The notes under the pieces are model-generated. The model was not told where the DNA came from. It searched no databases and saw only the letters and a list, made by a program, of their open reading frames with translations. Shown here in pieces: positions 20,905 through 64,000 of a DNA stretch of 64,000 bases. The position numbers and the translations under genes were made by a program. Position 1 is the stretch's first letter. Each line of letters begins with the position of its first letter. Source of the DNA: an uncultured bacterium (GTDB lineage: Bacteria; Acidobacteriota; Thermoanaerobaculia; Multivoradales; JAHEKO01). Where the stretch lies: assembly GCA_905479655.1 (NCBI GenBank), contig CAJQNK010000121.1, positions 14,732-78,731 on the forward strand, in the 5' to 3' direction.

Positions 20905-21199
20905 GAGGTACGCGCGTTGGGGAAGGGCTCGAGACGAATCCCGTCTTTTCTCCTCGGGCGCGGATGGCGTGTCAATCTCCGCAGGGCGCGGTCCAGGTGA
21001 CGGGGCCGCCCCCCGCGGCGGCCAGGGTGGCGGCTTCCACGGCGTCGAGCTCGCGGCCGTCAGGGCCGCGAGTCCGTCGAACGGATCCTGCGGCGGCCTC
21101 GTCCCCGCGCTCGAGGCCGGGTACACTCTCGCCAGCGGCGCCCCCCGCGGCGCAGCTCCCGCCTCGGCCACCATTCCCTTCCGCAGGACAGGAGATCCC

Positions 21200-21628
21200 A
21201 TGAAGACAGCGACGATCGAGACCGCCCGGGGCACGATTCGCCTCGAGCTGCACGACGACAAGGCACCGAAGACGGTGGCCAACTTCGAGAAGCTGGCAGG
21301 ACAGGGGTTCTACGACGGCCTGAAGTTCCACCGGGTGATCGCCGACTTCATGGTCCAGGCCGGCTGTCCCCAGGGCACCGGCACCGGCGGCCCCGGCTAC
21401 ACCTTCGAAGACGAGATCCACCCGGAGCTGCGCCACGACGGCCCCGGGGTCCTCTCCATGGCGAACGCGGGTCCCAACACGAACGGCTCCCAGTTCTTCG
21501 TCACCCACGTGGCGACACCGTGGCTCAACGGCAAGCACTCGGTCTTCGGCCGCGTCACGGAGGGGCAGGACGTCGTCGACGCGATTCGTCAGGGCGACAC
21601 GATGAGCGAGGTCAAGATCGACGGGTAG
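21200..21628 (+). CDS. Peptidyl-prolyl cis-trans isomerase, cyclophilin type
   Basis: '[30 protein letters not shown]...[14 protein letters not shown]' cyclophilin signature. GGAGA RBS at 21191-21195. Confidence 0.9.
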
Positions 21629-27587: not shown

Positions 27588-27766
27588 CCTGACCTTCTCA
27601 CCGGATGTCGTTGCGAGAGGCCGTAGGTGCCTGGAGATGCAAGGCTTGCGACCGAGGGCGACGCAGTCGTACTGTTTGTACGTCGAGGAGCCCGAGCGGA
27701 GCGTAACGTCGCAGATTCAGGTACATACGGTCTCGTAGTAGACAGTTGGTGAGAAGGTCAGGCTAG
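27584..27766 (-). mobile_element. MITE-like element, copy B (183 bp, inverted relative to copy A); its terminal CTAG supplies the stop codon of the HEAT/pseudocaspase gene
   Basis: The reverse complement of 27584..27766 aligns with 13403..13585 with only a handful of mismatches. TIRs CTAGCCTGACCTTCTCACC / GGTGAGAAGGTCAGGCTAG. Confidence 0.75.
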
Positions 27767-35179: not shown

Positions 35180-35402
35180 CGGCCTCCTCCCTTCGCCCCG
35201 GGGGCCAGGAAACGGAGACGGCCGGCGTCCCCCGAGCTCCGGCCGGAGCTCCGTCGGTTACGCCGGGCCGCTCGGTACGCGGGCACCTCGGCTCATGGAC
35301 AGGCGGACGGAACCGGCCAATCGTTTCAAACCGTCTTCGTCGATCCTACCGCTCGCCGCCCCATGGCCACAAGCGACGCCGTACGGTACGGACGGGTTCG
35401 GC

Positions 35403-37178: not shown

Positions 37179-37417
37179 GGAAGCCTACCTCCAGGTAGGG
37201 GGGATGGAGCGCCACAGGCCACCGCGCTCCGAGCACGAGAAAGGAATCAAGAAATACGTAGAAAATGATATCAGAAAGGAGAGCGTTCGGGGTCCCCTCG
37301 TTGCGGGCGACCGCCGGAGCAGTTCGGTTCCTGTCCGATGCCGCGGAATCCGGAGGCGGAGGGGCAAGGAGATCGAGCGGCGGAGCGTAGGCCCGGCGCC
37401 GGAACGGCGGTGGGTCT

Positions 37418-42060: not shown

Positions 42061-42329
42061 TCGGTGGTTCCGTCGGCCCGACGGTCCTCCCCGTCGGCAT
42101 CGGGTTCGCAGGGGGCCGAGTCGTCTTCCGGCCAGGGGTGAATCCCGTCGTCCGCGCGGCCGTGGGGTAAGTTGACAGCGGTTCGGCCCCCGCATATTCT
42201 CACCGCACTTCGAAGTTTGTCATCTGATTCGAGCCGGGACCCGAAGTCCGGCCCTCCTCCGATCCGCCAGGTTGGGAAGGTCCAGCACGGCCGCGTCGCT
42301 CTCGGCGCCGTCGACCCGGCGGAGACGGA

Positions 42330-51166: not shown

Positions 51167-51262
51167 CGTGCCGTAGTCGGGGGCGGCCCACGGGGTCGTC
51201 CGGAGGAAAGAGCCCCGTCGCGGATCGCTCCCGCGTCGGGGACTCACTCCGTGGCGCCGGGC

Positions 51263-51481
51263 TCAGAGGGCGGGGGCGAGCCGCGGCCGTCCGTCGGCCA
51301 GCTCGACCCGGTAGCTGTCGAGAATGCCGAGCAGGGACCGTCCCGCCATCTCGGCCGGCAGCTCCACCTCGCAGCGCCAGCCACCGCGCGTGGGCTCGAG
51401 CTCGACCGGCCGGTGGCTGCCTCCGGAGGCGAAGAGGCCGGTGATGGTGCCGTCGGGTTCGTGGAAGACGGTAGCGCGCAT
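51263..51481 (-). CDS. Small hypothetical protein (72 aa)
   Basis: ORF in the gap between two real genes. No motif. Weak. Confidence 0.25.
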   Translation of the reverse strand: MRATVFHEPDGTITGLFASGGSHRPVELEPTRGGWRCEVELPAEMAGRSLLGILDSYRVELADGRPRLAPAL

Positions 51482-51634
51482 GGTGACTCTCCTCGGGCCG
51501 TTTCAAGGTACAGGCGAATCCCCCGTCCGGCTGTTACGCCGGTCGGAGGATCCACACCCGTCGGAGGGTCGAGGCCGCAGCTGGGGCCGCGGCCGAGGTC
51601 CCGGCGTGCCCGAGAGCCCGGGGAGCGCGGGGGC

Positions 51635-54598
51635 TCACTCCAGCAGGCCGAGGCTCCAGGACAGGACCGCGCGCTGGGGCGCGGTCGGCGGGGCGTCGCT
51701 GCGTTCGAGGTCGGCGGCGAGGTCGGTGAGGGCGCCGGCGGCCTCGCGGACCGCCTCGCTCTCGTCCTCCCGGACCGAGGTCACGGCGCGCTCCAGGGCC
51801 GCCGCCACCTCGAGCTGGAACGACAGGAGCTCGTCGAGGGCGCCCGCGGGCACCTGGACGCGGGGGTCCATCACGACCTGGAGGGGCTCGGTCGCGACCC
51901 GACCGCCGGCGTGGAGCCGGACCTCGTAGCTCCCGGGCGTCACGAAGGCGCCCTCGGGCTCCACCGGCGTGGGTCGACCGGGGACGGCGGCGATGGAGTA
52001 GGAGCCACCCAGGGTCTCCGGCGGGGCGAGACGCAGATCCCAGACGAAGCGGTGGTGCCCCGGGCCGGTGCCCGGGAGCGACGGCTCGCCCAGCCAGACG
52101 TCGGCGAAGTACACGCGGGCCTCGGGCTCCGCGGGGGCCTCGTCGCTCGAGAAGCGTCGGAGCACGCGACCGTCCGAGTCCGCGATCTCGATCGCCACGG
52201 GCCCCTCGATCCCGTCCGGGAGCAGGTAGTCGAGGACCGCGCCCACGGGCGGGTTCTCGCCCCGCGGCGCCTCCAGCGGCAGCGGCGTGTCGCGGTTCTG
52301 GTTGAAGCGCAGGCGCACGGCGGGAGCCGGCGGCACCAGGACCGGGTCACCGCCCAACCGCGGGCCCGCCGCCAGGTGGCGCAGGGGCGCGATCGCGTCG
52401 AGCGCCCAGATGCCGCGGCCCTCGGTCGCCAGGATCACGTCGTCCTGGTGCACCAGCAGGTCGTTGATGCCGGTGGTGGGCAGGTCGAGCTGGAGGCTCG
52501 CCCAGCTCGCGCCGTCGTCGAACGAGACGTGGACGCCCCGGTTCGTGCCGGCGAAGAGAAGCCCGGGCGCCTCGGGGTCGTGACGCACGACGCCGACCCA
52601 CTCGTCGGTCGGCAGGCCGGCGTCGATACGGCTCCAGGTGGCGCCGAAGTCGCGGGTCTTCCAGGCCAGGGGGCGACGGTCGTCGAGGCGGTGGCGGTCC
52701 GCCGAGAGGTACGCCGTCGCCGGGTCCGTGGGCGACGGGTCGACGAAGTTGACCTTCGTCCAGTCGTCCATGTCCGGGGGCGTCGCGTCCGTCCAGCTCG
52801 TGCCGCCGTCGCGGGTGAGCTGGACGCGGCCGTTGGTCGTCCCCACCCACACCTGTCCATCCGCGGCCGTCGAGGGCGCGATCGCGAAAATCACCCCGAA
52901 GCCGCAGGCCGTCGCGCGCTCCACCGGCACGTCGCCCTCGCATCCGGCCGTGCCCTCCACGGTCCCGGTGAGATCCGGGCTGATGGTCTCCCAGCTCGCG
53001 CCGCCGTCCAGCGAGCGGAAGAGGACCTGGGCGCCCACGTAGATCGGGTGGGGCGGCCGCTTGGAGATCGCCAACGGCGTGATCCAGTCGTAGCGGTAGC
53101 GGGTGGTTCCGGGGCGGGCGGCGTAGCTCGAGACGGGCCAGGGGGAGACGTTCTGCACCTGGCCGGTGCGCCGATCCCACTTCGAGATCCGGCCTCCCAG
53201 GCCCGCGCCGAAGACGATGTCCGGGTCCGCCGGGTGGGGGACGTCGCCGTCGCGCTCGTCGCCGCCCACGGGGCTCCAGTCGCGGAACGTGATCTGCCCG
53301 TAGTCGCTGCGGCTGGCGATGCCCACGGTGCCCGAGTCCTGCTGGCCGCTGTAGACGCGGTAGGGGAAGGCGTCGTCCGCCGCCAGCCGGTAGAACTGGC
53401 CCGTGGGCTGGTTGTACCAGGAGCTCCAGGTGGCGCCACCGTTGAGGGTGACGACGGCGCCCTGGTCGGCGCCCGTGATCATGTGGCTCGGGTCGGTGGG
53501 GTCGATCCACAGGGCGTGGTAGTCGTCGCCGCCCGGCGAGCTGCGGACGATCGGGAAGGTGGCCCCGCCGTCGGTGGAGCGGCGCAGCGGTTGACCGCCG
53601 GCCCAGAGCGTCTCGGGGTCGCTCGGGTGGGGGACGAGGAAGCTCATGTAGCTGCCGGCGAGGCTCGCGTCCGGGTTGACCTGTCGCCAGCTCCCGCCGC
53701 CGTCCTCGGAGCGCCACAGGCCGCCGCCGTCGGCGGTCTCCACCGCGGCCCAGAGTTGCCGCGCCTCCGTCCCCGGCGCGACCGCGAGTTCGATCCGGCC
53801 CAGCGGCCCGGCCGGCAGGCCGTCGCCCGCCACGGCGCTCCAGGTGCGTCCGCCGTCGGTCGACCGGTGGATGCCGCTGCCCGGCCCGATGGTGGGCTGG
53901 AAGTAGTCGAGCCACGGCCAGCGGCGCACCTGCCAGAGGGAGGCGTAGATCACGTCGGGCAGCGCCGCGTCGGCGGCCAGGCTCACGGCGCCGGTGTCGT
54001 CGTCGAGGAAGAGGACCCGGGTCCAACTGGCGCCGGCGTCCTCGGTGCGGAAGACGCCGCGCTCGCCGCCGGGTCCGAACACGGGTCCGAGAGCGGCGAC
54101 GAGGGCCGTGTCGGCGCTCCGCGGGTCGACCCAGAGGTCGCCGATGTGACGGCTCTCCGGCAGGCCCACCCAGCTCCAGGTCTCGCCGCCGTCGGTGGAG
54201 CGGTAGATGCCGTCGCCGTCCACGATGTCCCAGCGCTGGTGCACCTGCCCGGTGCCGATCCACAACACCCGGGGGTCGGAGGGGGCCACCGCCAGCGCGC
54301 CGATCGAGGCGCTGCCGTAGTCGTCGAAGAGCGGCCGCCACGTGGTGCCGACGTCGTCGGTCCGCCAGACGCCGCCGTCGGCGGCGCCGAGGTAGAAGGT
54401 CGCCGGATCACCGGGGATGCCGGCCACCGCCGTCGCCCAGCCGCCGCGGTGGGGACCCACCAGGCGCCAGTGGAGGTCGTTTGGCAGGTCGAGCGCCGCG
54501 GCTGGAGCCAGGCTCGACAGTAAGGCGATCACGAGGCACGAGAGGGCGAAGCCCCTCGGGGCCCCGGTGGCAGCGAGGGCGTGACGGAATCGGGTCAT
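51635..54598 (-). CDS. Secreted BNR/sortilin(VPS10)-like beta-propeller glycosidase-like protein; paralog of the gene at the window start
   Basis: Signal peptide. Many BNR-like 'S.DGG.TW' segments (STDGGETWSWV, TEDAGASWTRV, STDGGRTWSAV, SEDGGGSWRQV, STDGGATF, SLDGGASWETIS, TRDGGTSWT). Confidence 0.85.
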   Translation of the reverse strand: MTRFRHALAATGAPRGFALSCLVIALLSSLAPAAALDLPNDLHWRLVGPHRGGWATAVAGIPGDPATFYLGAADGGVWRTDDVGTTWRPLFDDYGSASIGALAVAPSDPRVLWIGTGQVHQRWDIVDGDGIYRSTDGGETWSWVGLPESRHIGDLWVDPRSADTALVAALGPVFGPGGERGVFRTEDAGASWTRVLFLDDDTGAVSLAADAALPDVIYASLWQVRRWPWLDYFQPTIGPGSGIHRSTDGGRTWSAVAGDGLPAGPLGRIELAVAPGTEARQLWAAVETADGGGLWRSEDGGGSWRQVNPDASLAGSYMSFLVPHPSDPETLWAGGQPLRRSTDGGATFPIVRSSPGGDDYHALWIDPTDPSHMITGADQGAVVTLNGGATWSSWYNQPTGQFYRLAADDAFPYRVYSGQQDSGTVGIASRSDYGQITFRDWSPVGGDERDGDVPHPADPDIVFGAGLGGRISKWDRRTGQVQNVSPWPVSSYAARPGTTRYRYDWITPLAISKRPPHPIYVGAQVLFRSLDGGASWETISPDLTGTVEGTAGCEGDVPVERATACGFGVIFAIAPSTAADGQVWVGTTNGRVQLTRDGGTSWTDATPPDMDDWTKVNFVDPSPTDPATAYLSADRHRLDDRRPLAWKTRDFGATWSRIDAGLPTDEWVGVVRHDPEAPGLLFAGTNRGVHVSFDDGASWASLQLDLPTTGINDLLVHQDDVILATEGRGIWALDAIAPLRHLAAGPRLGGDPVLVPPAPAVRLRFNQNRDTPLPLEAPRGENPPVGAVLDYLLPDGIEGPVAIEIADSDGRVLRRFSSDEAPAEPEARVYFADVWLGEPSLPGTGPGHHRFVWDLRLAPPETLGGSYSIAAVPGRPTPVEPEGAFVTPGSYEVRLHAGGRVATEPLQVVMDPRVQVPAGALDELLSFQLEVAAALERAVTSVREDESEAVREAAGALTDLAADLERSDAPPTAPQRAVLSWSLGLLE

Positions 54599-54719
54599 AG
54601 TGTCTCCTCTTTCTCCGAGGCGAGCATACCGGGCTCCGGGGGTCCTGCGCCCGTTCCCTGCGTCGGCGTAGCGGGTCGAGGTGCTTGACGAAGAAAAGTA
54701 GCGATGTTGTTTTTCTCTC

Positions 54720-55355
54720 GTGCTGAGGGAGCCGACCCAGGAACGGAGTCAGAGGAGTCTCGAGCGACTTCTCGACGCGGCGGAGGAGCTGGTCGAGGAG
54801 CGTGGCTTCGAGGCCACGAGCCTGCGCGCCCTGTGCGATCGAGCGGGCCTCACCAGCGGTGCCTTCTATGCCCGGTTCGTGCGCAAGGAGGACCTGATCC
54901 TCGCGCTGGTCGAGCGGCTGGAGCGACGCCTCCTCCGGCCGGTTCTCGAGCTGGAGCGGGTGGCGGAGGACGGTCGTCCGGTGGCGGCCGTCCGGGCGCT
55001 GCTCCTCGCAGCCGCCGACCTCTACCGAGGGCACCCCGGACTCTTCCGTTCCCTGACCTCGCTGGCGCGCCGGGATCCGGAGGTGGCGACCGCCCTGCGC
55101 CGCCTCAACGATCGCACCCTCGAACGTGTCCAGGCGGCGGCCGGGTCGATCGTCGCCCGGGCCGACCACCCGCGGCCCGAGCTGGCGCTTCGCCTGGGCC
55201 TCGTCGCGACGACCGTCACGCTGCGGGAGCTCGTCCTCGAACGCAACCTGTTCGACGACGCGCCGGCGCTGCCGGACGAGCTCCTGGTGGACGAGCTCGT
55301 CGCGATGCTGTTCGGTTACCTCGAAGAGGGGCGTCGTGCCGTCATCCGGGACTGA
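54720..55355 (+). CDS. TetR-family transcriptional regulator (GTG start)
   Basis: N-terminal HTH 'RSLERLLDAAEELVEERGFEATSLRALCDRAGLTSGAFYARF'. Confidence 0.75.
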   Translation: MLREPTQERSQRSLERLLDAAEELVEERGFEATSLRALCDRAGLTSGAFYARFVRKEDLILALVERLERRLLRPVLELERVAEDGRPVAAVRALLLAAADLYRGHPGLFRSLTSLARRDPEVATALRRLNDRTLERVQAAAGSIVARADHPRPELALRLGLVATTVTLRELVLERNLFDDAPALPDELLVDELVAMLFGYLEEGRRAVIRD

Positions 55356-56793
55356 TCGCCGCGGGGAGCGTCGGAGCCGGCGTTGGCGGCGCTTCGGGGT
55401 TGCGCTGGCCGTGGTGACAGCGATCTCGGGCGCGATCGTGGCCTGGGCCCTGGCCGGCGTGTCGCCGGATCCGTGGCACGATGCCGGGCCTGCGCCCGCG
55501 CAGCCAGCGGGAGAGCGATCGGCCTCGATCGAAGTCGTGGTCGAGCCCTCGGCGTCCCGGATCGACGAGACTCTGTCGATCTCGGTGTCCGGCCTGGTTC
55601 CGAGTGAAGAGGTCGTTCTGAGTCTCTCGACGGAGGACGCGGAAGGGGTCGAGTTCGTCGCCTGGGCTCGCTACCGGGTCGACGGGGAGGGTCGCGTCGA
55701 CCCGTCGACCCGGGCGCCCCTCGGTGGCACCTACCGCGGCCTCGACGGTCAGGGGCTCCTGTGGTCGGGACGGGCGGGTGGGGAGCGATCGTTCGCTCAT
55801 TCGGCCAGCTGGGGCCGTCGAACCTACCGGTTGCGGGCGGAGTCCGGTGCGGGCTTCGCCGAGGCGTCGTTCGAGCGCCGCTATCCCTGGCCCCGGGTGC
55901 GCCACGAGCCCGTCCGCGAAGGGGGCGTCGTCGGGGAGCTCTGGCTGCCCGGCCCCGAGGGCGCGTTCGACGAGTTGGCGCAGGGCGGCGCTGCCATCCT
56001 CCTCCTGGGTGGATGGGGCGACGGCCCCGCCCCCCTGCGCTCCGCGCTCCTGGCCGACCGGGGCTTCGTCGTTCTGAACCTGGGCTTCCACGGCTGGGAG
56101 GGTCTGCCGCCGAACCTCGTGCAGATCCCCGTGGAGACGGTGACCCGAGCTCTCGATCTCCTGCGCTCCCGCCCGGAGGTGGGCGAGGCCCCGGTCGGCC
56201 TTTTCGGTGTCTCCAAGGGCGCCGAGCTGGCGCTCCTCGCCGCCAGCGCCGACGATCGGATCTCCGCCGTTGCCGCCTGGGTCCCGGCCTCCGTCACCTT
56301 CGCCGGGATCGACCTCCGCGACCCGACACCGGGTTGCTCCTGGACCTGGCGGGGCGAGCCGGTGCCCTGCGCGCCTCCCCGGCTCGGACTGCCCGAGATC
56401 CGCAACACCGTCCGGCTCCTGCTCGGCTGGCCGGTGTCCTTCCGCCACGGCTACCTCGCGGCCTTGGAGGCGACGCCGCCGGAGGCCCGGATTGCCGTCG
56501 AGAGGATCGCGGGCCCGGTGCTGCTCGCCTCCGGCGGCGACGACCGGCTCTGGCCCAGCGCCGAGATGGCCAGGGAGGTTGAGGACCGGCTCCAGGCCCG
56601 GGGGTTCCCGCACCCGGTGGTGAACCACGTCTTCCGCGAGGCGGGTCATGGCCTCGCCCCCGCCCTGTGGCCTCAGGGCGGAGGCCCCTCGCGCTTCCTG
56701 ATCCGGGGCGGCGACGCGACGGCGAACCACCTCGCGGGCCGCCAGGCGTGGGCCGAGACGGTGGCCTTCCTGGACTCCGCCCTCGGCGACTGA
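55336..56793 (+). CDS. Acyl-CoA thioesterase / BAAT-family alpha/beta-hydrolase with an N-terminal membrane anchor; start uncertain (GTG 55336 or 55411)
   Basis: BAAT N-terminal-like region followed by 'GLFGVSKGAELAL' (GxSxG) and 'AEMAREVED...REAGHG'. No ATG between the TetR stop and the TM segment 'FGVALAVVTAISGAIVAWALAGV'. Confidence 0.6.
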   Translation: MPSSGTDRRGERRSRRWRRFGVALAVVTAISGAIVAWALAGVSPDPWHDAGPAPAQPAGERSASIEVVVEPSASRIDETLSISVSGLVPSEEVVLSLSTEDAEGVEFVAWARYRVDGEGRVDPSTRAPLGGTYRGLDGQGLLWSGRAGGERSFAHSASWGRRTYRLRAESGAGFAEASFERRYPWPRVRHEPVREGGVVGELWLPGPEGAFDELAQGGAAILLLGGWGDGPAPLRSALLADRGFVVLNLGFHGWEGLPPNLVQIPVETVTRALDLLRSRPEVGEAPVGLFGVSKGAELALLAASADDRISAVAAWVPASVTFAGIDLRDPTPGCSWTWRGEPVPCAPPRLGLPEIRNTVRLLLGWPVSFRHGYLAALEATPPEARIAVERIAGPVLLASGGDDRLWPSAEMAREVEDRLQARGFPHPVVNHVFREAGHGLAPALWPQGGGPSRFLIRGGDATANHLAGRQAWAETVAFLDSALGD

Positions 56794-56889
56794 GCTCGTC
56801 GTCGTCTTTCTCCGTTTTCGGGGAATCGCGGCTCCCTCGTCCGTCCCCAGGGGTGAGCCCGACGATCCCTACGATGGAGGACGAGACCG

Positions 56890-57978
56890 ATGGAGACCCG
56901 AGGATCCAACCAGCAGCTCCGGCATGGACAGGAGGCCCGGTTCGAGAGGCGCCCCCGAACGAGCGAGCCGGAGGCCGCCGCCCTGTCGGCGGCCGACGAG
57001 TTCGTGGCCTACGCCCTCGGGTTCGACCGGGACCATCGCCGGGCCGGACGGACCGTGCCGGAGGCGCCGGAACGACGCGAGTTCGTCGACTCGTTCTGGA
57101 CTTTCGTGGAGCGGTTGGAGACGGCGGTGGGCGGCCGGCCGGCCTCGGCCCTGCCGGAGCTCCGCAGGGCCGTGGTCGAACGGGTCGGCCCGGTGCTCTT
57201 CCGCTCCCGGCCCATCGCGCGTTCGTACTGGAAGCCCCACGGCTACACCGGCGACTTCCGCACGATGGAGCTGATCTACGACCTCGAGGAGCGAGCGGGC
57301 CTGGATCCTACGCAGCCCGCCCTGGTCAACGGCCTCGACTTCTTCTACTCGACGCTGCACTCGGTGCGCGGCGTGTGGGAGCGGCGGTGGGCGTTCCGGG
57401 ACCTCCTGTCGCGGCGGCTGGAGGAGAGCGCAGGGCGAGCCGAAGGGGAGGGCGGCGGCCTCGCCGTGCTGGACGTGGCGTGCGGCGGCGCTCGCTATAT
57501 TCGGGACGTCGTGGCGTCGGAGCTCGACACGTCGCGGCTCGAGCTCCTGGCGATCGACCAGGACGCGGCGGCGATCGAGGCGCTGCGGCGCGGCCTCGCC
57601 AGCCTGGGCCCGCGGTTGCAGGCCGTCTCGATCCCGATCACGGCGCTCCCCGGCGCCGTCGGGGAGCGGACGTTCGACGTCGCCCTCTCGTCGGGTCTCT
57701 TCGACTACCTGGACGACGACTCGGCCCGGAGGTTGCTGGCCCTCATGGCGTCGCGCCTGCGCCCGGGCGGCACCCTGGCGATCACGAACTTCCACCCGGA
57801 CGACCCGTCCGCGTTCTGCAAGGACTGGCTCGGCGACTGGCAGCTCGTCTTCCGCCGGGAGGCCGAGGTCCGCGACCTGTTCCCCTCCGATCTCGAGGTG
57901 ACCACCCGACGCTCCGGGGACGGCTCCCTCGTGCTCGCGTTCGGGCGACGAGCGAGCGCCGTCGGAGGCGAGCGATGA
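56890..57978 (+). CDS. Class I SAM-dependent methyltransferase with a ~180-aa N-terminal extension
   Basis: Motif I 'VLDVACGGARY'. Post-I acidic 'LAIDQD'. Motif II 'FDVALSSGLFDYL'. ATGA overlap with the downstream desaturase gene. Confidence 0.65.
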   Translation: METRGSNQQLRHGQEARFERRPRTSEPEAAALSAADEFVAYALGFDRDHRRAGRTVPEAPERREFVDSFWTFVERLETAVGGRPASALPELRRAVVERVGPVLFRSRPIARSYWKPHGYTGDFRTMELIYDLEERAGLDPTQPALVNGLDFFYSTLHSVRGVWERRWAFRDLLSRRLEESAGRAEGEGGGLAVLDVACGGARYIRDVVASELDTSRLELLAIDQDAAAIEALRRGLASLGPRLQAVSIPITALPGAVGERTFDVALSSGLFDYLDDDSARRLLALMASRLRPGGTLAITNFHPDDPSAFCKDWLGDWQLVFRREAEVRDLFPSDLEVTTRRSGDGSLVLAFGRRASAVGGER

Positions 57979-58886
57979 GCACGGGGGTGAAGCGCCTCGA
58001 GGGGGCGACGCTGCGCTCCTGGCGGGTGACGGTCGGCGCCGTGGTGCTGGTACCGTTCCTCGGCTTCCTCGCGGCCGTCGTCCATCTCTGGGGCGAGGTT
58101 CTGCGGCCGGCGGACCTGCTCTCGTTCCTCGGCTTCTACCTCTTCACGGGCTTCGGCATCACCGTGGGCTACCACCGTCTGTTCACCCACCGGGGGTTCG
58201 TCGCGGTCGGACCGCTCCGCTGGTTGCTCGCGGTGGCGGGCTCCATGGCGGTGCAGGGACCGATCCTCCGGTGGGCCGCCGACCATCGACGCCACCACCG
58301 GCACAGCGACCAGCCCGGAGATCCCCACAGCCCCCACGTCGGCGAGGAGGACGACCTCCTCGGGCTCCTCCGGGGCTTCGCGTGGGCCCATCTCGGCTGG
58401 TTCTTCGACGCGGAGAAGAGCCGCGCGAGCGTCTACGCCCCGGACCTGCTGCGCGACCCTCTGGTCCGCCGGGTCGACCGGCTCTACCCGCTATGGATCG
58501 CCCTCTCCCTCGGCCTGCCGACGTGGGTCGGCTGGCTGGCGACCGGGAGCGCGGACGGGGCGTTGCGGGGTCTCCTCTTCGCGGGCTTCGCGCGGGTCTT
58601 CTTCGTGCAGCACGTCACGTGGAGCGTCAACTCGGTCTGTCATCTCTTCGGGAGCCGCGGGTACCGCACTCGGGACGAGAGCCGGAATCACCGCCCGATG
58701 GCGATCCTGGCGCTGGGCGAGGGCTGGCACAACAACCACCACGCCTTCCCGGGCTCGCCCCGGCACGGCCTCGACCGGGGGCAGTGGGACCCGTCCTGGT
58801 GGCTGATCCGTGGCCTGGAGAGGCTTGGCCTCGTGCGCGAGGTCAGGCTGCCGAGCCCTGCTGCACTGGAGGGTCGCCGCCGCTAG
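57975..58886 (+). CDS. Membrane acyl-CoA/acyl-lipid delta-9 desaturase (stearoyl-CoA desaturase family)
   Basis: Three His boxes 'HRLFTH', 'HRRHHRH', 'HNNHH'. Two pairs of TM helices. Confidence 0.85.
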   Translation: MSTGVKRLEGATLRSWRVTVGAVVLVPFLGFLAAVVHLWGEVLRPADLLSFLGFYLFTGFGITVGYHRLFTHRGFVAVGPLRWLLAVAGSMAVQGPILRWAADHRRHHRHSDQPGDPHSPHVGEEDDLLGLLRGFAWAHLGWFFDAEKSRASVYAPDLLRDPLVRRVDRLYPLWIALSLGLPTWVGWLATGSADGALRGLLFAGFARVFFVQHVTWSVNSVCHLFGSRGYRTRDESRNHRPMAILALGEGWHNNHHAFPGSPRHGLDRGQWDPSWWLIRGLERLGLVREVRLPSPAALEGRRR

Positions 58887-58903
58887 CCAGCGCGGCAGGA
58901 GGG

Positions 58904-59167
58904 CTACCCGCCGGCCGCCGGATCCTCGCTGAGCTGGTGGCTGTCCTCGGCCCCCAGGTCGAGGCCGTAGACCTCCTTGAGGCTGCGGATCTTCGCCAGG
59001 GAGTCGTCGCCGAAGGGGGCCTTGCCCTCGAAGGCGTGGAGGACGATGCCCTCCAGCAGGTCGCCCAGCGTGATGTCGTGGACCTCGGCCAGGGCCTTCA
59101 AGACCTTGAGGATGCGCTTCTCGATCCGCACCCCGGTCTGGACGCGCTCGACCCGCTTCGCGGTCAT
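58904..59167 (-). CDS. Small ribbon-helix-helix-like DNA-binding protein (hypothetical)
   Basis: 87-aa ORF 'MTAKRVERVQTGVRIEKRILKVLKALAEVHDITLGDLLEGIVLHAF' (beta-strand + two helices pattern). ATGA overlap with the upstream gene. Confidence 0.45.
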   Translation of the reverse strand: MTAKRVERVQTGVRIEKRILKVLKALAEVHDITLGDLLEGIVLHAFEGKAPFGDDSLAKIRSLKEVYGLDLGAEDSHQLSEDPAAGG

Positions 59168-59619
59168 GGGTTCACCCCCTGGCCCGCGACGGCGGTCTCC
59201 AGCGGTGGCGGCGGCGTCGCGGCGCGGTCCGGCAGCACGAACTCCCGGCGCGCCCGGTCGCTGGCCAGGAGCTCCGGGCTGTAGTGCAGACCGAGCAGGG
59301 CCGGGCCGTCGGTGAAGAGGTCCGGGTTGCGCCCGGCGAAGTCGGGCCACGCCTCGGCCTCGGGGTGGCGCCGGATCCGCTCGCGGACCAGGAGCACCCA
59401 GGCCCAGGTCAGCGTGGCGTGGTAGTGCTCGGGCGCCCCGGCTCGCCGGGCGAGCCCCTGGAGCCCGGCCTCGATCCGGGCGAGGACCTCCGGCAGGCCG
59501 TGCCGACGCAGGAGCAGCCAGGCGATGCGGACGTGCTCGCGGTGGTCGAAGAGAGCGGGGTCGAGGGTGTCGTCGGAGAACCCGGCGAGGAGGTCGTTGT
59601 CGCTGAGGCGAGGCGTCAT
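59164..59619 (-). CDS. Hypothetical protein; start probably at MTPRLS (GGGAG RBS) rather than 59643
   Basis: ORF with typical composition. No recognised motif. Forms a 2-gene operon with the RHH-like gene. Confidence 0.4.
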   Translation of the reverse strand: MTPRLSDNDLLAGFSDDTLDPALFDHREHVRIAWLLLRRHGLPEVLARIEAGLQGLARRAGAPEHYHATLTWAWVLLVRERIRRHPEAEAWPDFAGRNPDLFTDGPALLGLHYSPELLASDRARREFVLPDRAATPPPPLETAVAGQGVNP

Positions 59620-59645
59620 GGTCAGGCTCCCGGTGTCCGTCATTA

Positions 59646-59667
59646 GTTATCTATGTACCAAGATAAC
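59646..59667. promoter_or_regulatory. AT-rich palindromic operator candidate GTTATCT-N8-AGATAAC in front of the minus-strand two-gene operon
   Basis: Perfect 7-bp inverted repeat in a locally AT-rich patch (rare in this genome), 25-50 bp upstream of the likely start codon. Confidence 0.4.
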
Positions 59668-59792
59668 ACACCTGCGGCAAGAGGCCCGGCCACCGAGGCC
59701 GACGTCCATCCGGTCCATCCCGTCCATCTCCGTCCAGCTCGACCCGACCCCTCCACGCCGCCCACGGGCCGGCGCTCGCCCCGGAGGGGGCT

Positions 59793-59843
59793 CGGGAGGC
59801 CGGCTTTGCTCGGCGGCTGACGAGCGTCGCTCAGCCGGCCTCC
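59793..59843. other. Long GC hairpin (12-bp perfect stem GGGAGGCCGGCT/AGCCGGCCTCCC with a nested 5-bp stem) in the 450-bp leader upstream of the SIR2-NACHT gene
   Basis: Seen directly. No adjacent U-tract, so not a canonical intrinsic terminator. Confidence 0.4.
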
Positions 59844-60089
59844 CGATCCCCTGGGGCGGGGGGGCGTGTTGGTTTCGGGGTTGTGCATCGGGAGGGGCTC
59901 CCCGGGTGTCGTCCTGAGTGGAGGCCCGTGAGGGCCGGAGTCGAAGGACCCCGTGCCAGGGTGGCTGGAAAGGGGTGTGGTGTTGGGCGCAGCGGCGTGA
60001 CGGGTCTCGGACCGCGCGGGCTCGACCCGGGACCGGTATCATCAACCGGCGCCCCCAGGCCGGCTCTCCGGAGCCGATCTTTCTCGACG

Positions 60090-63000
60090 ATGACTGCCGA
60101 CGCCCACGCCCGGTTGCGAGACGCCGTCCGCGAAGGACTGGCGGTGGTCGTCGTGGGCTCGGGGATCACCTTCGGGGCGACGAGGGCCGCCACCGCGCGC
60201 TGGGACGGGCTGCTGGAGGACGGAATCGCCTGGTGTGATAAGCGGGTGCCGGGGCTGCCCGACGGCTGGGCCGAGGTTCAGGGCAGGGTCCTCGCGCTGG
60301 GGCGCGGCGGCGACCTGGACTCCCTCCTCTCGGTCGCCGAGACCGTGCGCACGAAGCTCGAGGCGAAGTCTGCGGAGTTCGACCGGAAGGACGCTGACGA
60401 CCTACCGTTCTTCAAATGGCTCGAGGCCGCGGTGGGCCGATTTCGCTACGCCAACCTCCAGGCCGAACGCCGGGGCGCCTTGGACGCCCTGGCCGGGCTT
60501 CCCTGCCCGCTTTCCACCACCAACTACGACGGCCTGCTCCGTCAGGCCACCGGCCGCCCCGTCCTGACCTGGCGCCACCCCCAGGCGTCCAACGAGGCCG
60601 TTCGACTCCTCCGGGAGCCGCAGAGTGCCGTGCTCCATCTCCACGGCCACTGGCGGGATCCGGGCTCCGTCGTCCTCGGGATCCGGGACTACCAGGAGCT
60701 GCGCGATCACCGGAAGATGCAGGCCTTCCAACAGGCCGCCGGAGCTACCCGGTCGTTCGTCTTCGTCGGCTGTGGCGGCACGGTCCACGACTCGAACCTG
60801 GGTGCGCTGTTGCGCTGGCTGCGCGACCACTTCTCCCAGGGGAGGCACTACCTGGTGGTCACAGACGGCGACCTGGACGACACGCCGGAGCGGCCGAGTC
60901 TCTACCGGGAGCTCTTCGACTCCGTCCTCGAGCCGGTCTCGTGTGGGCCCTCCTGGAGTGAGCTCCCGGGCTTTCTCGAGGGCCTGGCTCCGGGGCCGGG
61001 ACCCACAGCGGAGGGCGCCCCGCCGCCGCCCGACTTCCCTCCTGCCGTGGCGGCCTACCGCGCCTGGGCGCAGACCCGGCACGCGACGCTCTACATGGTG
61101 GGCGTCGGCGCCGGCGACCTCGAGCTCCGCCTGGACGAGGTCTACGTGCCGCTGCGCCTGGCGGCGGGACCGCGGGGATTCCATCGGGGTCTCGCGGGCA
61201 AGAGCGGGGTCGAGGAGGCAGGGCCGGGCGAACCCGCCCACGGCCTTCCCGGCGCCGAGGCGGAGGAGCTCGGCCTCGTGGGCGACGGCGACCTGCGGTT
61301 GGAGCGCATCCTGCGCATCGCCGAGGCGCAGGGGGGCCGCCACGCCGTGATCCTTGGTGATCCGGGGACCGGCAAGACGACCGCGCTACGCAAGCTCCAT
61401 CGGGTCTGCTGCGCGCCGGGGGAGGGGCCGCGGCTCGGCCTCGGCCTGCCGGAAGAGACCCTGCCGGTCCTCCTTCGGCTGCGCGCCGTGGAACCCTCCG
61501 ACCTGGCCGAGGGCCTCGAGAGGGTCATCGGTCGGGAGCTGAAGGGGCAGTCCGAAGACGAGGGCTTCGCCGCCGCCGGACCGGCCCTCTGGGAGCACGG
61601 AAGCGTCCTCCTGCTCCTCGACGGGCTCGACGAGATCCCCGCCGCCGGCCACCGGCGGGCCGTCTGCCGCTGGCTCGAGCGGGAGCTGGCCGCGGCGCCC
61701 GCGGGTGTTCGCGCGGTGGTCACCACCCGCCGCTCCGGCTGGGACGGTCTGCCCTCCGAGCGCGATCCCCGGCCGGTGGCGGAGCGGGTGGTGCTCGACC
61801 CCGGGGTCTTCCAGGCGTTCGACGTCCGGCCCCTGGACCTGCCGCAAATCGCCGCCCTGGCCGGCAAGTGGTTCGACGCCGCCATCGCCGCGGGCGCGGG
61901 CTCGGCGGCGAGCCTCGCCGAGGCCCGGGACCACCTGCTGAAGGCCCTGAGGGCTTCGACCTACGCCGGCCACCGCTGGCGCGAGATGGTGTCGAACCCG
62001 CTGTTGCTGACCCTGCTGTGCGTGATCAGCGTTCGCGGCAAGGTCCTGCCCCGGGAGCGCACCGAGTTCTACGACGAGTGCCTGACGATGCTCCTGGGGA
62101 GCTGGGTCGAGCGGGAGCACGGCGAGACCCCCCCGATCTCCCCGGTCGACGCCCTGGAGCTCCTCCGTCCGGTGGCGTGGCGGCTCCACGAGGACTCGGC
62201 GCAGAACGAGATCCACGAAGCCGAGCTCGTGGACCATCTCCAGGAGGGGCTCGAGGCCCGGCGCCGCGACGTGGACCCCTTCGAGCTGGCTGACTGGCTG
62301 CACCACCGCGCCGGCGTCCTCACGAGCTTCGGCCCGCACCGGCTCGGCTTCTTCCACCTGGGCGTGCAGGAGTACCTGGCCGCCCTGCACGCGGCCGTGG
62401 AAGGGGAGGGGCTCCTCCGCCGCCTGGCCGCGGCGGCGCTCTCCCCGGACACGGGCGAGCGCTGGGACCAGGTCGTCCGCCTGGCCGCCGGTCTTCCCCA
62501 CGGCCAGGGGGCCTTTGTACCCCTGGCCGAGGCCCTGATCGCCGGTGGCGGCCTGCTCTCCCGTCCGCGACTGATGGAGGAGCTGCTGGACGAGGCCCGC
62601 CAGATGGATGTCGGCCCCTTCCTCCCCAAGCTGGAGCCCGGGGCCGAGGTGAGCGAGGAGGAGCGGGCCGCCGCGCTACGCCTGCTGCTGCGGGTGCCGC
62701 GGGACGAGCGGCTCCTCGCGGTCGCCGAGGCCCTCCGGGACCGGCCCGGCGACGTCGGCTCCCTGGCCCGCCAGCTCCTGGAGAACGCCCGCCGGGTCTC
62801 CGAGGGAGTACCCGGGGTCCGGCGGCCCGTGTTCCTGGTCGTCGGGCCGGCCGCCGAGAGGGCGGGCGGCGAGCTGGTCGACCGGTTGGAGGCGCGGGGC
62901 CGGGCCGTCAATCCCGTCCCGACCGCCCGCTGGGAGCACCGCATGAAGGAGATTGAGGAGGCGGGCGCCCTGGCCTTCCTCGGTGGCCCGATGGACCCGC

Positions 63001-64000
63001 CGTGGGCCGAGGCGGGCATCGCCGGCCTGGTCCGCATCGCCCGCAGGCGAGAGCTGCCTGTCCTGGCTCTGCTCTTGGGAGGCGAGGGGCTCCATGGCTG
63101 GCCCGAAGGCCTCGAGCCTCCCGTCGCGGTAGGCCTGCCCGAGGATCTGCAGCCCGGAGCCAGTGGTTCCGACGAGGCCCTGGGAGAGATCGAGGCGGCT
63201 TTGCGCGAGGGCGGGTCGCTCGGGAAGAGCCGCGGCGTCCGTCTGGAAGGCACGCCGGTTAGTCTTCGCCTCGAAGGGCAGCCAGCGGTCGTGGAGGCCG
63301 GCGGGGGCCCTGCCATCGTGGACGCCGCCCACCCGCCGACGCCCGGCGAGAGCTTCACCGAGCCCCTCACCGGCCTCCGCTTCCTCTGGGTCCCCGGCGG
63401 CCGGTTCGAGATGGGAGCCGAGGACATCCGCGACGAAGAGCGGCCGGTTCACCCCGTCCGCGTCTCCCCCTTCTGGTTGGCTGAAACGGCGGTGACCAAT
63501 GCCCAGTACCGGCGGTTCCTGGAGGCGTGGGAGGACGACGACCGGCCCGAGGAGCCGAGGTTCTGGCGCGACCGGCGCTTCTCGGACGAGGCCCAGCCCG
63601 TGGTGGGCGTCTCGTGGCACGACGCCGAGAGGTTCTGCGCCTGGCTCCGGGAGGCCGGAGGCCTCGAGGCGTCGCTGCCGAGCGAGGCGCTGTGGGAGTT
63701 CGCGGCCCGGGGAGAGGATGGCCGGCCGTATCCGTGGGGGAAGGAGCTGCCGTCGGAGCGCCGCGCACGATATGGGCAGGAGTTCCAGAGCGGGAGCCCG
63801 GCCGCGGTGGGGAGCTATCCGGACGGCGCCGGGCCGTTCGGCCACCTGGACCTGGCGGGGAACGTCTGGGAGTGGTGCCTCGACGTTTGGGACCCCAAGG
63901 CATACGAGAAGCGTGCGCCGTCCGGCGAGGCCCTCGACCCGGTCGTCGAGGAGGGGGACGAGGGCAGGCGGGGGCTCCGGGGCGGCGGCTGGAGCTACTC
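60090..64000 (+). CDS. STAND NTPase: N-terminal SIR2-like domain + NACHT NTPase + C-terminal FGE-sulfatase (SUMF1/DUF323-like) domain; 3' end lies outside the window
   Basis: Frame 0 is open from 60090 to the window end (the ORF track lists no stop in this frame). SIR2_2-like 'VVVVGSGITFGA', 'LSTTNYDGLL', 'VLHLHGHW'. NACHT Walker A 'ILGDPGTGKTT' and Walker B 'LLLLDGLDE'. FGE domain 'FEMGAEDIRDEERPVHPVRVSPFWLAETAVTNAQYRRF', 'PVVGVSWHDAERFCAWL', 'LPSEALWEFAARG'. Confidence 0.8.
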   Translation, partial: MTADAHARLRDAVREGLAVVVVGSGITFGATRAATARWDGLLEDGIAWCDKRVPGLPDGWAEVQGRVLALGRGGDLDSLLSVAETVRTKLEAKSAEFDRKDADDLPFFKWLEAAVGRFRYANLQAERRGALDALAGLPCPLSTTNYDGLLRQATGRPVLTWRHPQASNEAVRLLREPQSAVLHLHGHWRDPGSVVLGIRDYQELRDHRKMQAFQQAAGATRSFVFVGCGGTVHDSNLGALLRWLRDHFSQGRHYLVVTDGDLDDTPERPSLYRELFDSVLEPVSCGPSWSELPGFLEGLAPGPGPTAEGAPPPPDFPPAVAAYRAWAQTRHATLYMVGVGAGDLELRLDEVYVPLRLAAGPRGFHRGLAGKSGVEEAGPGEPAHGLPGAEAEELGLVGDGDLRLERILRIAEAQGGRHAVILGDPGTGKTTALRKLHRVCCAPGEGPRLGLGLPEETLPVLLRLRAVEPSDLAEGLERVIGRELKGQSEDEGFAAAGPALWEHGSVLLLLDGLDEIPAAGHRRAVCRWLERELAAAPAGVRAVVTTRRSGWDGLPSERDPRPVAERVVLDPGVFQAFDVRPLDLPQIAALAGKWFDAAIAAGAGSAASLAEARDHLLKALRASTYAGHRWREMVSNPLLLTLLCVISVRGKVLPRERTEFYDECLTMLLGSWVEREHGETPPISPVDALELLRPVAWRLHEDSAQNEIHEAELVDHLQEGLEARRRDVDPFELADWLHHRAGVLTSFGPHRLGFFHLGVQEYLAALHAAVEGEGLLRRLAAAALSPDTGERWDQVVRLAAGLPHGQGAFVPLAEALIAGGGLLSRPRLMEELLDEARQMDVGPFLPKLEPGAEVSEEERAAALRLLLRVPRDERLLAVAEALRDRPGDVGSLARQLLENARRVSEGVPGVRRPVFLVVGPAAERAGGELVDRLEARGRAVNPVPTARWEHRMKEIEEAGALAFLGGPMDPPWAEAGIAGLVRIARRRELPVLALLLGGEGLHGWPEGLEPPVAVGLPEDLQPGASGSDEALGEIEAALREGGSLGKSRGVRLEGTPVSLRLEGQPAVVEAGGGPAIVDAAHPPTPGESFTEPLTGLRFLWVPGGRFEMGAEDIRDEERPVHPVRVSPFWLAETAVTNAQYRRFLEAWEDDDRPEEPRFWRDRRFSDEAQPVVGVSWHDAERFCAWLREAGGLEASLPSEALWEFAARGEDGRPYPWGKELPSERRARYGQEFQSGSPAAVGSYPDGAGPFGHLDLAGNVWEWCLDVWDPKAYEKRAPSGEALDPVVEEGDEGRRGLRGGGWSY

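What the first reader, a model, noticed from the sequence alone, without database searches (positions are those of the whole stretch)
60090..64000. Partial >1300-aa SIR2-NACHT protein whose C-terminal sensor position is an FGE-sulfatase (SUMF1-like) domain
A SIR2_2-type effector (NAD+-depleting in Thoeris, DSR and Avs-like systems) is fused to a NACHT NTPase with canonical Walker motifs. This is the architecture of bacterial NLR-like anti-phage and cell-death proteins. In place of the usual TPR/WD40/LRR sensor, the C-terminus carries an FGE/DUF323 domain with the complete 'PV.GVSW.DA..FC.WL...LPSEA.WE.AARG' signature. The gene has a long (450-bp) structured leader and sits next to a small RHH operon.
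Basis: partly seen in the sequence, partly recalled or inferred. Interest (0 to 1): 0.75.

Follow-up and report, generated by a model that had tools for sequence, protein, structure and literature searches.

The report
Retroelement-diversified SIR2–NACHT immune sensor
This is a bacterial NOD-like-receptor-type gene (NAD-destroying SIR2 head, NACHT switch, lectin-fold tip) whose tip is templated for rewriting by a mutagenic reverse-transcriptase cassette lying just past the window's end; it is a clean new example of a class that is already described but has never been tested experimentally.

Summary
Window 60090-64000 (+) is one open frame of 1303 codons. SIR2_2, NACHT and FGE-sulfatase all score above Pfam cut-offs. 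The full protein is 1336 aa; the window cuts off the last 33 codons.

The 'SUMF1-like' domain is not an enzyme: in the segment where solved FGEs read LCHxSYC it has no cysteines. That segment is the variable repeat (VR) of a diversity-generating retroelement (DGR). On the source contig, directly downstream, lie an HTH_17 gene, an Avd-like gene, a 120-nt template repeat (TR), a DGR-type reverse transcriptase and a second, convergent SIR2-NACHT-FGE paralog. All 12 TR-VR1 and all 19 TR-VR2 differences fall on TR adenines (p 1e-10 and 1e-18).

Relatives share the cassette and swap the N-terminal effector (SIR2, metallophosphatase, SEFIR/TIR, Mrr).

The '450-bp structured leader' and the 'RHH operon' are not conserved with the family and look incidental.

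DGR-diversified NACHT/STAND-lectin 'antigen sensors' were described by Kaur 2020/2021, Kibby 2022 and Doré 2024. This is therefore a new member of a known kind. The SIR2 effector and the conserved HTH accessory are modest additions. Function (ligand-triggered NAD+ depletion) is inferred, not shown.

The parts
60090..64000 (+). Target gene A: SIR2-NACHT-(TIR-like)-FGE/CLec protein, residues 1-1303 of 1336 (the stop lies at ~64100, outside the window)
   Evidence: Open frame; Pfam domains; identical to full-length P0001
60138..60989 (+). SIR2_2-type effector domain (residues ~17-300): Gly-rich loop GSGITFG 23-29, catalytic N145 (60522-60524) and H185 (60642-60644)
   Evidence: Pfam SIR2_2 63 bits; best solved relative is human FAM118B, E 5e-14, with TTNYD and LHLHG aligned; FAM118B N163 and H206 are required for NAD processing; motif positions
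61344..61880 (+). NACHT NTPase domain (residues 419-597): Walker A 61356-61382, Walker B 61608-61634
   Evidence: Pfam NACHT 33.5 bits above the 26.7 cut-off; motifs invariant or nearly invariant in the family
61881..62828 (+). NACHT-associated helical region (residues ~598-913), conserved across the family, no Pfam match
   Evidence: Family alignments; census query 320-900 finds 241 representatives at E<=1e-30
62829..63209 (+). Alpha/beta insert domain with a TIR-like or flavodoxin-like fold (residues ~914-1040), followed by a disordered linker (~1043-1075)
63381..64000 (+). FGE-sulfatase / C-type-lectin-fold sensor domain (residues 1098-1336, cut at 1303); lacks the cysteine-containing segment seen in solved FGEs
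63973..64000 (+). First 28 nt of DGR variable repeat VR1 (the full core is window 63973-64092 = L001 13884-14003); variable codons 1302-1303 lie at 63993-63998
   Evidence: TR/VR alignment, 12 of 12 mismatches at TR adenines
59644..60089 (.). 446-bp intergenic region between divergent genes. It contains a 51-nt hairpin (59794-59844) and a small terminator-like hairpin (60061-60076). Probably holds promoters/operators; there is no evidence that it belongs to the system
   Evidence: Fold z -2.63; no Rfam family; hairpin unique in the window; not conserved in relatives

Best explanation
The gene encodes one of two targets of a diversity-generating retroelement. It is an NLR-like, single-chain sensor-effector protein.

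Shown by sequence:
- The N-terminal SIR2_2 domain keeps its catalytic Asn and His.
- A NACHT NTPase with intact Walker A and B motifs follows, then a helical region and a TIR-like alpha/beta insert.
- The C-terminal domain has the FGE/C-type-lectin fold. Its last ~40 codons are a variable repeat (VR).
- On the source contig the gene is followed by HTH_17, an Avd-like gene, a 120-nt template repeat (TR), a DGR-type reverse transcriptase and a convergent SIR2-NACHT-FGE paralog with its own VR.
- The VRs differ from the TR only at TR adenines.

Inferred from established DGR biology: the TR transcript is reverse-transcribed with adenine-specific errors. The cDNA then replaces the VRs, guided by the shared GC-rich 3' end and a downstream hairpin. 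This would recode 15 codons, about 2e13 possible protein variants per target, with no stop codon possible.

Inferred by analogy with Avs/bNACHT NLRs and with SIR2 defence effectors (ThsA, DSR, Avs5): when the diversified lectin-fold surface binds an invader molecule, the NACHT module oligomerises and switches on the SIR2 NADase. NAD+ is depleted and the infected cell arrests or dies.
For: Architecture.

DGR cassette next to the gene.

TR/VR repeats. TR-VR1 mismatches are 12 of 12 at adenines (p 1.3e-10); TR-VR2 are 19 of 19 (p 1.5e-18). TR adenines sit mostly in AAC/AAT codons; none can become a stop; 1.8e13 amino-acid combinations.

RT: best solved relative is the RT chain of 8ub7 (E 1.2e-33, against 7e-15 for group II intron RTs), with PIGNLTSQ and YMDD aligned. 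8ub7 is labelled a DGR ribonucleoprotein.

Avd: hits to bAvd and DivGenRetAVD, both sub-threshold.

Hairpin: a conserved 8-bp GC hairpin lies downstream of both VRs.

SIR2 catalytic pair conserved.

Same cassette with A-only mismatches in relatives: L002 12/12 and 15/15; L086 14/14.

Family-wide variability: columns templated by AAC/AAT codons have 3.56 bits of entropy against 1.66 bits for non-A codons (p 1.8e-5).

Effector swapping on a constant NACHT-FGE chassis.

Literature describing this class.
Against: - No direct evidence that the DGR is active now. Only one VR allele per target is available, and a metagenome scan for alternative alleles found none.
- The Avd-like gene scores below the curated cut-offs.
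- The paralog's VR carries a 1-nt deletion that shifts the frame and removes the near-invariant GFRV motif. At least one target allele may therefore be non-functional, or the assembly may be wrong there.
- NADase activity, ligand binding, oligomerisation and an anti-phage role are all inferred. No member of the DGR-NACHT-CLec class has been tested experimentally.
- PADLOC gives only domain-level hits.
- Some close relatives have lost the RT or have no cassette nearby. The proteins can evidently persist without ongoing diversification.
Confidence: 0.72

Rival explanations
1. One reading: a static NLR-like SIR2-NACHT protein whose C-terminal domain is a SUMF1/FGE-type enzyme or a fixed sensor, with no link to a retroelement.
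For: Pfam names the domain FGE-sulfatase. NCBIfam gives sub-threshold similarity to EgtB, PvdO and GldK enzymes. A genuine sulfatase gene lies elsewhere in the window, at 24888-26285.
Against: The cysteine-containing LCHxSYC segment of solved FGEs is absent and is replaced by the variable repeat. The TR/VR pairs with purely adenine-specific mismatches, plus the RT and Avd-like genes, lie immediately downstream. The fold is closest to the non-enzymatic DGR variable protein TvpA among compact matches.
Confidence: 0.03
2. Fossil DGR: the cassette diversified the two receptors in the past but is now silent or defective, so the gene acts as a fixed-specificity NLR.
For: Close relatives show decay: in L082/L083 the RT is truncated to 59 aa and no TR is found, and L084 has two convergent targets with no cassette between them. 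The paralog's VR is frameshifted. No alternative VR alleles were found.
Against: The RT is full length (334 aa) with PIGNLTSQ and YMDD. The TR is intact. Neither VR has accumulated a single non-adenine difference from the TR over 120 nt, which argues for recent homing.
Confidence: 0.15
3. The same molecular machine serves a purpose other than anti-phage defence. Options include kin or allorecognition (like fungal HET NLRs), sensing of a glycan or small molecule, or a non-lethal signalling output in which SIR2 acts as an ADP-ribosyltransferase or deacylase rather than an NAD+ depleter.
For: Doré et al. raise kin recognition as an alternative for this class. FAM118B, the closest solved SIR2, has only modest NAD-processing activity and a proposed signalling role. 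The lectin fold can bind sugars. The immediate neighbours are metabolic genes, not known defence systems.
Against: The effector repertoire exchanged on this chassis (SIR2, TIR/SEFIR, Mrr nuclease, HNH, metallophosphatase) is typical of abortive-infection systems. Relatives sit beside toxin-antitoxin modules and conjugation genes. A caspase/STAND/kinase cluster lies 20 kb upstream.
Confidence: 0.12

Closest known systems
DGR-diversified STAND/NACHT-CLec 'antigen sensors' (Kaur et al. 2020, 2021 'STAND NTPase-FGS' systems; Kibby et al. 2022 'FGS-type antigen-receptor' bNACHTs; Doré et al. 2024, DGR clade 5D)
   Same: An N-terminal effector, a central NACHT and a single C-terminal FGE/CLec domain holding the VR. 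Two targets share one TR. An RT plus a four-helix accessory gene lie adjacent. Paralogues and relatives carry different effectors.
   Different: A SIR2 effector is not mentioned for DGR targets in Kaur 2020 or Doré 2024 (no occurrences). In Kaur 2021 it appears only for a different system. Kibby lists SIR2 among NACHT effectors in general. Two further differences: a conserved HTH_17 plus helical-bundle gene sits between target and Avd, and a TIR-like insert lies between NACHT and CLec. The host appears to be an Acidobacteriota-like MAG rather than a known multicellular bacterium. RT clade membership (5D) was not tested.
Bordetella phage BPP-1 DGR (Mtd / bRT / bAvd) and Treponema TvpA
   Different: The target is a cytoplasmic multi-domain NTPase/NADase, not a phage tail fibre or surface lipoprotein. 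There are two convergent targets and an extra HTH gene.
Bacterial NLR-like defence proteins (Avs1-5, bNACHT) and SIR2 defence effectors (ThsA, DSR1/DSR2, Avs5); vertebrate FAM118A/B
   Same: Tripartite effector-NTPase-sensor layout. SIR2_2 subfamily with the catalytic Asn and His conserved. Closest solved SIR2 is FAM118B (E 5e-14), followed by ThsA chains.
   Different: The sensor is a single hypervariable lectin-fold domain rather than TPR-like repeats that recognise conserved phage proteins. Only domain-level PADLOC hits were found (LmuA 35 bits, ThsA 26 bits, Dsr1 11 bits), with no partner genes of those systems.
Formylglycine-generating enzyme (SUMF1/FGE) and relatives EgtB, PvdO, PorK/GldK
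   Different: The cysteine-containing LCHxSYC segment of solved FGEs is absent and is replaced by DGR-templated variable codons. All NCBIfam enzyme models score far below their cut-offs.

Membership tests
Diversity-generating retroelement (DGR) | Reverse transcriptase of the DGR type (IGxxxSQ-type motif, YMDD) | tested here: met
   L001 15488-16492: best solved hit is the RT chain of DGR RNP 8ub7, E 1.2e-33; PIGNLTSQ and YMDD align. This gene lies outside the window.
Diversity-generating retroelement (DGR) | Template repeat / variable repeat pair whose differences fall on template adenines | tested here: met
   TR L001 15238-15357 against VR1 (window 63973-64092): 12 of 12 at A. Against VR2: 19 of 19 at A. 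p 1e-10 and 1e-18.
Diversity-generating retroelement (DGR) | Accessory variability determinant (Avd) next to the TR and RT | tested here: inconclusive
   A 115-aa ORF sits in the right place. bAvd scores 26.8 bits (cut-off 40) and DivGenRetAVD 29.4 bits (cut-off 80). Both are below threshold.
Diversity-generating retroelement (DGR) | VR at the C-terminal end of a C-type-lectin/FGE-fold target | tested here: met
   [not shown]
Diversity-generating retroelement (DGR) | Target-recognition elements: a GC-rich 3' end of the VR shared with the TR, then divergence, and a downstream hairpin | tested here: met
   Identical GTCGGCTTCCGTGTCGCCGTCGCGCCCCCGA in the TR and both VRs, with divergence immediately after. 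An 8-bp GC hairpin lies ~42 nt downstream of both VRs. Function not tested.
Diversity-generating retroelement (DGR) | Ongoing mutagenic homing (VR heterogeneity in a population) | not testable with these tools
   Only one allele is available. A pattern scan of metagenome contigs found none. Read-level data would be needed.
NACHT / STAND NLR-like NTPase | NACHT domain above the curated threshold, with Walker A GxxxxGK[TS] and Walker B hhhhDGLDE | tested here: met
   PF05729 33.5 bits against 26.7; GDPGTGKTT 423-431; LLLLDGLDE 507-515.
NACHT / STAND NLR-like NTPase | Tripartite effector-NTPase-sensor layout, with effector exchange among relatives | tested here: met
NACHT / STAND NLR-like NTPase | Ligand-induced oligomerisation that activates the effector | not testable with these tools
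   Inference from Avs/bNACHT literature.
SIR2_2 (defence-type sirtuin NADase) | SIR2_2 domain above threshold, with the catalytic Asn and His | tested here: met
   PF13289 63 bits. N145 and H185 align to FAM118B N163 and H206.
SIR2_2 (defence-type sirtuin NADase) | NAD+ hydrolysis | not testable with these tools
   Biochemical assay needed.
Formylglycine-generating enzyme (SUMF1) | FGE fold | tested here: met
   [not shown]
Formylglycine-generating enzyme (SUMF1) | Catalytic cysteine pair in the LCHxSYC segment (its catalytic, copper-binding role is from my own knowledge, not checked here) | tested here: not met
   The aligned segment is WSYSAEYL with a 3-residue deletion and no Cys. Not an FGE enzyme.
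Thoeris / DSR / Lamassu (PADLOC systems hit) | Full-length match and partner genes | tested here: not met
   Only the SIR2 segment matches (LmuA 35 bits, ThsA 26 bits, Dsr1 11 bits). No ThsB or LmuB-type neighbours.
TIR domain (insert, residues ~914-1040) | TIR fold and a conserved catalytic Glu | tested here: inconclusive
   [not shown]

The most novel reading that the evidence does not exclude
An intact DGR continually rewrites the ligand-binding surface of two suicide NADase NLRs in an apparently unicellular Acidobacteriota-like bacterium. That would be an anticipatory, adaptive-like receptor repertoire coupled directly to a lethal output. It would operate through lineage-specific parts not yet described for DGRs. 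One is an HTH_17 plus four-helix-bundle protein, found in only 7 sequence clusters and always placed between a target gene and the Avd/RT genes, which could gate or target mutagenesis. The other is a TIR-like module between NACHT and sensor that could couple binding to activation or provide self-tolerance.
Probability: 0.25. Interest if true: 0.8.

Novelty: new member of a known kind. Interest (0 to 1): 0.42.

Why it matters
DGR-diversified NLR-like receptors are the nearest bacterial analogue of somatically diversified antigen receptors, yet none has been characterised experimentally.

This locus is compact and self-contained, about 10 kb: two targets, HTH, Avd-like gene, TR and RT. The output is fused to the sensor and easy to assay (SIR2 NAD+ consumption). 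It could therefore serve as a minimal model for three open questions:
- whether such receptors really sense invaders;
- how a randomly diversified sensor wired to a lethal effector avoids autoimmunity;
- what the extra HTH component does.

It also gives an annotation lesson. 'FGE-sulfatase / SUMF1' calls at the C-terminus of NTPase proteins are usually non-enzymatic DGR variable domains. A gene cut by a contig or window end can hide the element that explains it.

Tried and rejected
1. Leader as a riboswitch or structured RNA. No Rfam family reached a meaningful score (best 22.8 bits against a gathering score of 70). The fold z-score is only -2.6. No sigma-70-like promoter was found. The hairpin is unique in the window. 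The region is not conserved in any related locus. Rejected as part of the system.

2. RHH operon as a regulator or toxin-antitoxin partner. The Pfam hit is sub-threshold. There is no NCBIfam hit. The pair is absent from all related loci. Rejected.

3. Membership of Thoeris, DSR, Lamassu or Avs by PADLOC/NCBIfam. Only domain-level hits were found.

4. Direct evidence of diversification. A scan of metagenome contigs for the TR/VR core with N at every adenine position gave 0 hits.

It was replaced by a local phmmer census with family-derived seeds, so 'other/none' N-termini remain unclassified.

7. Organism naming through cluster look-up gave no names. A single housekeeping gene points to Acidobacteriota. 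This is tentative.


Full report
**1. Observation**

Translating window 60090-64000 in frame 1 gives 1303 codons with no stop. Third-position GC is 0.906 and second-position GC 0.513, in a 72% GC window. That is what a real coding frame looks like, not a chance high-GC ORF.

Pfam finds three domains above their curated cut-offs:
- SIR2_2, residues 143-271, 63 bits;
- NACHT, residues 419-597, 33.5 bits against a cut-off of 26.7;
- FGE-sulfatase, residues 1098-1302, 152 bits, E 2.8e-44.

Walker A (GDPGTGKTT, 423-431) and Walker B (LLLLDGLDE, 507-515) are canonical. The ATG at 60090 matches the N-termini of homologues.

A homology search returned the identical full-length protein, P0001 (1336 aa). 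The window therefore lacks the last 33 codons.

**2. What the window's end hides**

Looking up P0001's contig gave locus L001 (ENA ERZ23498415 scaffold_225). Its first 13,911 bases are identical to window 50090-64000.

Immediately downstream of the gene lie:
- an HTH_17 protein (209 aa);
- a 115-aa ORF with sub-threshold bAvd and DivGenRetAVD similarity;
- a 334-aa reverse transcriptase;
- on the opposite strand, a second SIR2-NACHT-FGE protein, P0013 (1142 aa).

Repeat finding shows a 120-nt sequence between the Avd-like gene and the RT (L001 15238-15357). It recurs at the 3' end of both large genes. An ungapped comparison gives 12 differences from the copy in our gene, all at template adenines (23 A in 120 nt; hypergeometric p 1.3e-10). 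It gives 19 differences from the paralog's copy, all at adenines (p 1.5e-18). This is the diagnostic signature of a diversity-generating retroelement.

The RT's best solved relative is the RT chain of 8ub7 (E 1.2e-33, against 7e-15 for group II intron RTs), with PIGNLTSQ and YMDD aligned. 8ub7 is labelled a DGR ribonucleoprotein.

In the frame of the gene, the template adenines lie in 15 codons. Eight of these are AAC or AAT, and none can mutate to a stop. The theoretical repertoire is 1.8e13 protein variants per target.

Both VRs end in the same GC-rich 31-mer as the TR and diverge from it immediately afterwards. Both are followed by a conserved 8-bp GC hairpin. From memory, this layout resembles the IMH and hairpin elements of the Bordetella phage DGR; I did not test that.

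In window coordinates VR1 is 63973-64092. Only its first 28 nt lie inside the window, including two variable codons at 63993-63998.

**3. The 'SUMF1-like' domain is a binding module, not an enzyme**

In solved FGEs the aligned segment reads RGGS[FY]LCHxSYCxRYR. I recall the two cysteines there as the catalytic copper ligands, but I did not check this. The corresponding segment here is RGGGWSYSAEYL---RSAIR. It has no cysteines and a three-residue deletion, and it is exactly the VR. All enzyme-level NCBIfam models (EgtB, PvdO, SenA, GldK) score far below their cut-offs.

Across about 120 family representatives, columns templated by AAC/AAT codons have a mean entropy of 3.56 bits. Non-adenine codons of the same segment have 1.66 bits (Mann-Whitney p 1.8e-5). 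The scaffold residues R1297, G1298, G1299, R1313, G1326, F1327 and R1328 are nearly invariant.

**4. The rest of the protein**

The SIR2 domain's closest solved relative is human FAM118B (E 5e-14), followed by ThsA-type chains. FAM118B N163 and H206 are required for NAD processing (PMC12700824). They align with N145 (TTNYD) and H185 (LHLHG) here. The effector is therefore plausibly active.

**5. Relatives**

The family keeps a NACHT-FGE chassis and exchanges the N-terminal module: SIR2, metallophosphatase, SEFIR/TIR, Mrr or HNH.

The NACHT core alone (residues 320-900) finds 241 representatives at E <= 1e-30 among 1.84 billion. Of the best 150:
- 121 carry the FGE domain;
- 36 have a metallophosphatase;
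- 17 have SIR2 (15 of them with FGE);
- 13 have SEFIR/TIR;
- 5 have Mrr.

The cassette is conserved in the closest loci:
- **L002** (uncultured Phycisphaeraceae MAG) has SIR2-NACHT-FGE and metallophosphatase-NACHT-FGE targets flanking HTH, TR and RT. The RT is 59% identical to ours. Mismatches are 12/12 and 15/15 at A.
- **L086** (SEFIR/TIR version) has HTH, Avd, TR and RT, with 14/14 mismatches at A.

Decay is also seen:
- **L082/L083** keep both targets, HTH and an Avd-like ORF, but the RT is truncated to 59 aa and no TR is detectable.
- **L084** has two convergent targets with nothing between them, next to conjugation genes.
- **L085** has no cassette within 7 kb.

**6. Leader and RHH claims**

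The 446-bp region between the divergent starts has a fold z-score of -2.6. It contains a unique 51-nt hairpin, has no Rfam match, and shows no similarity to the upstream regions of relatives.

The two small minus-strand genes (87 aa and 151 aa) give only a sub-threshold RHH_4 hit and occur in none of the related loci. By contrast, the HTH_17 gene recurs in four related loci. I conclude that the leader and the RHH pair are incidental neighbours.

**7. Mechanism**

Shown by sequence: the domain architecture, intact catalytic and NTP-binding motifs, a complete DGR cassette, and adenine-only TR/VR divergence in two targets.

Inferred from established DGR biology: the TR RNA is copied by the RT and Avd with adenine-specific misincorporation, and the cDNA replaces the VRs.

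Inferred by analogy with Avs/bNACHT NLRs and with SIR2 effectors that are activated by assembly (ThsA, Avs5, FAM118): ligand binding by the diversified lectin surface drives NACHT oligomerisation and SIR2-mediated NAD+ depletion, giving abortive infection.

My confidence that this is a DGR-targeted NLR-like protein is about 0.9. My confidence in the full functional chain is about 0.5. The combined figure I report is 0.72.

**8. Comparison with what is known, and novelty**

- Kaur et al. 2020 linked FGS domains in NTP-dependent conflict systems to DGRs.
- Kaur et al. 2021 described effector-STAND NTPase-FGS proteins with a neighbouring RT and four-helix accessory, often as two or more copies with different effectors.
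- Kibby et al. classed 'FGS-type antigen-receptor' NACHT proteins as likely DGR targets and listed SIR2 among NACHT effectors.
- Doré et al. 2024 showed in situ diversification of such targets, and noted that their clade 5D DGRs commonly have two NACHT/nSTAND1-CLec targets.
- A 2026 survey shows FGE-sulfatase sensors among defence-associated STANDs.

This locus fits that class in every tested respect. What it adds is modest:
- a SIR2 effector on a demonstrable DGR target, which is not mentioned in Kaur 2020 or Doré 2024 and did not surface in a search combining the two terms;
- a rare conserved HTH_17 plus helical-bundle accessory, 7 clusters in 5.8 billion proteins;
- a TIR-like insert;
- a host that is probably an Acidobacteriota-like MAG.

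Verdict: new member of a known kind, interest 0.42. The score is held up by the fact that the whole class is still experimentally untested, and that this compact locus with a fused, assayable effector would be a good model.

Noticed in passing
L001 16693-16811 (-), outside the window (paralog P0013): VR2 of the paralog carries a 1-nt deletion at a template-adenine position. It shifts the frame for the last ~25 codons and removes the near-invariant GFRV motif. It could be a DGR-introduced indel (repairable by the next homing event), a dead allele, or a mis-assembly of a heterogeneous region.
   Followed up: partly
L001 14177-14806 (+), outside the window; homologues at L002 6492-7097 (-), L082 13754-14377, L086 10578-11204, L024 5271-5735: A 209-aa HTH_17 protein always sits between a NACHT-FGE target and the Avd/RT genes. 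The family has only 7 clusters in 5.8 billion proteins. Conserved motifs are GCHxFHPxDK...FxEAR and a basic tail. The model shows a winged HTH, a long helix and a four-helix bundle. Similarity to Avd is no better than to generic bundles. Role unknown.
   Followed up: partly
[not shown]
   Followed up: partly
window 27763-42195 (-): A second putative conflict-system cluster lies ~20 kb upstream. It comprises a HEAT-repeat protein (886 aa), a caspase-domain protein (485 aa), a caspase plus subtilase protein (1207 aa), a 591-aa protein with no Pfam hit, an AAA_16/AAA_22 plus Ser/Thr kinase protein (744 aa) and a TPR plus AAA_16 protein (881 aa).
   Followed up: no
L082/L083 13754-15468; L084 10290-11160: Relatives show stages of DGR decay. 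In L082/L083 the RT is truncated to 59 aa and the TR is lost between two intact targets. L084 has two convergent targets with no cassette, beside type IV secretion/conjugation genes.
   Followed up: partly
L002 718-4623 (+) and 7199-10681 (-): In the closest full-length relative (Phycisphaeraceae MAG), the two targets of one TR carry different effectors, SIR2 and calcineurin-like metallophosphatase. In the window's own locus both targets carry SIR2.
   Followed up: yes
window 59644-60089: The intergenic region contains a perfect 12-bp-stem hairpin (59794-59844), a TTATCT...AGATAA palindrome next to the start of the minus-strand gene (~59647-59668), and a small terminator-like hairpin with a T-run 13 nt before the ATG (60061-60085). 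None is conserved in relatives.
   Followed up: partly
window 24888-26285 (-): A genuine sulfatase gene (PF00884, 118 bits) lies in the same window. The FGE-like domain of the NLR lacks the cysteine-containing FGE segment, so it is unlikely to be the sulfatase's maturase. The co-occurrence looks coincidental.
   Followed up: no
window 17410-21282 (-) and 21063-21151 (-): A long SNF2-family helicase ORF gives strong domain-level PADLOC hits to DpdE and ZorD. Its mechanical N-terminal extension overlaps a tRNA-Ser(CGA) gene, so the true start must be downstream of the tRNA.
   Followed up: no
window 10963-13269 (-): The best named relatives of the acyl-CoA oxidase are Acidobacteriota and Thermoanaerobaculia MAGs (top hit 76% identity). 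This suggests the host is an uncultured high-GC Acidobacteriota-like bacterium. It is a single-gene inference.
   Followed up: partly
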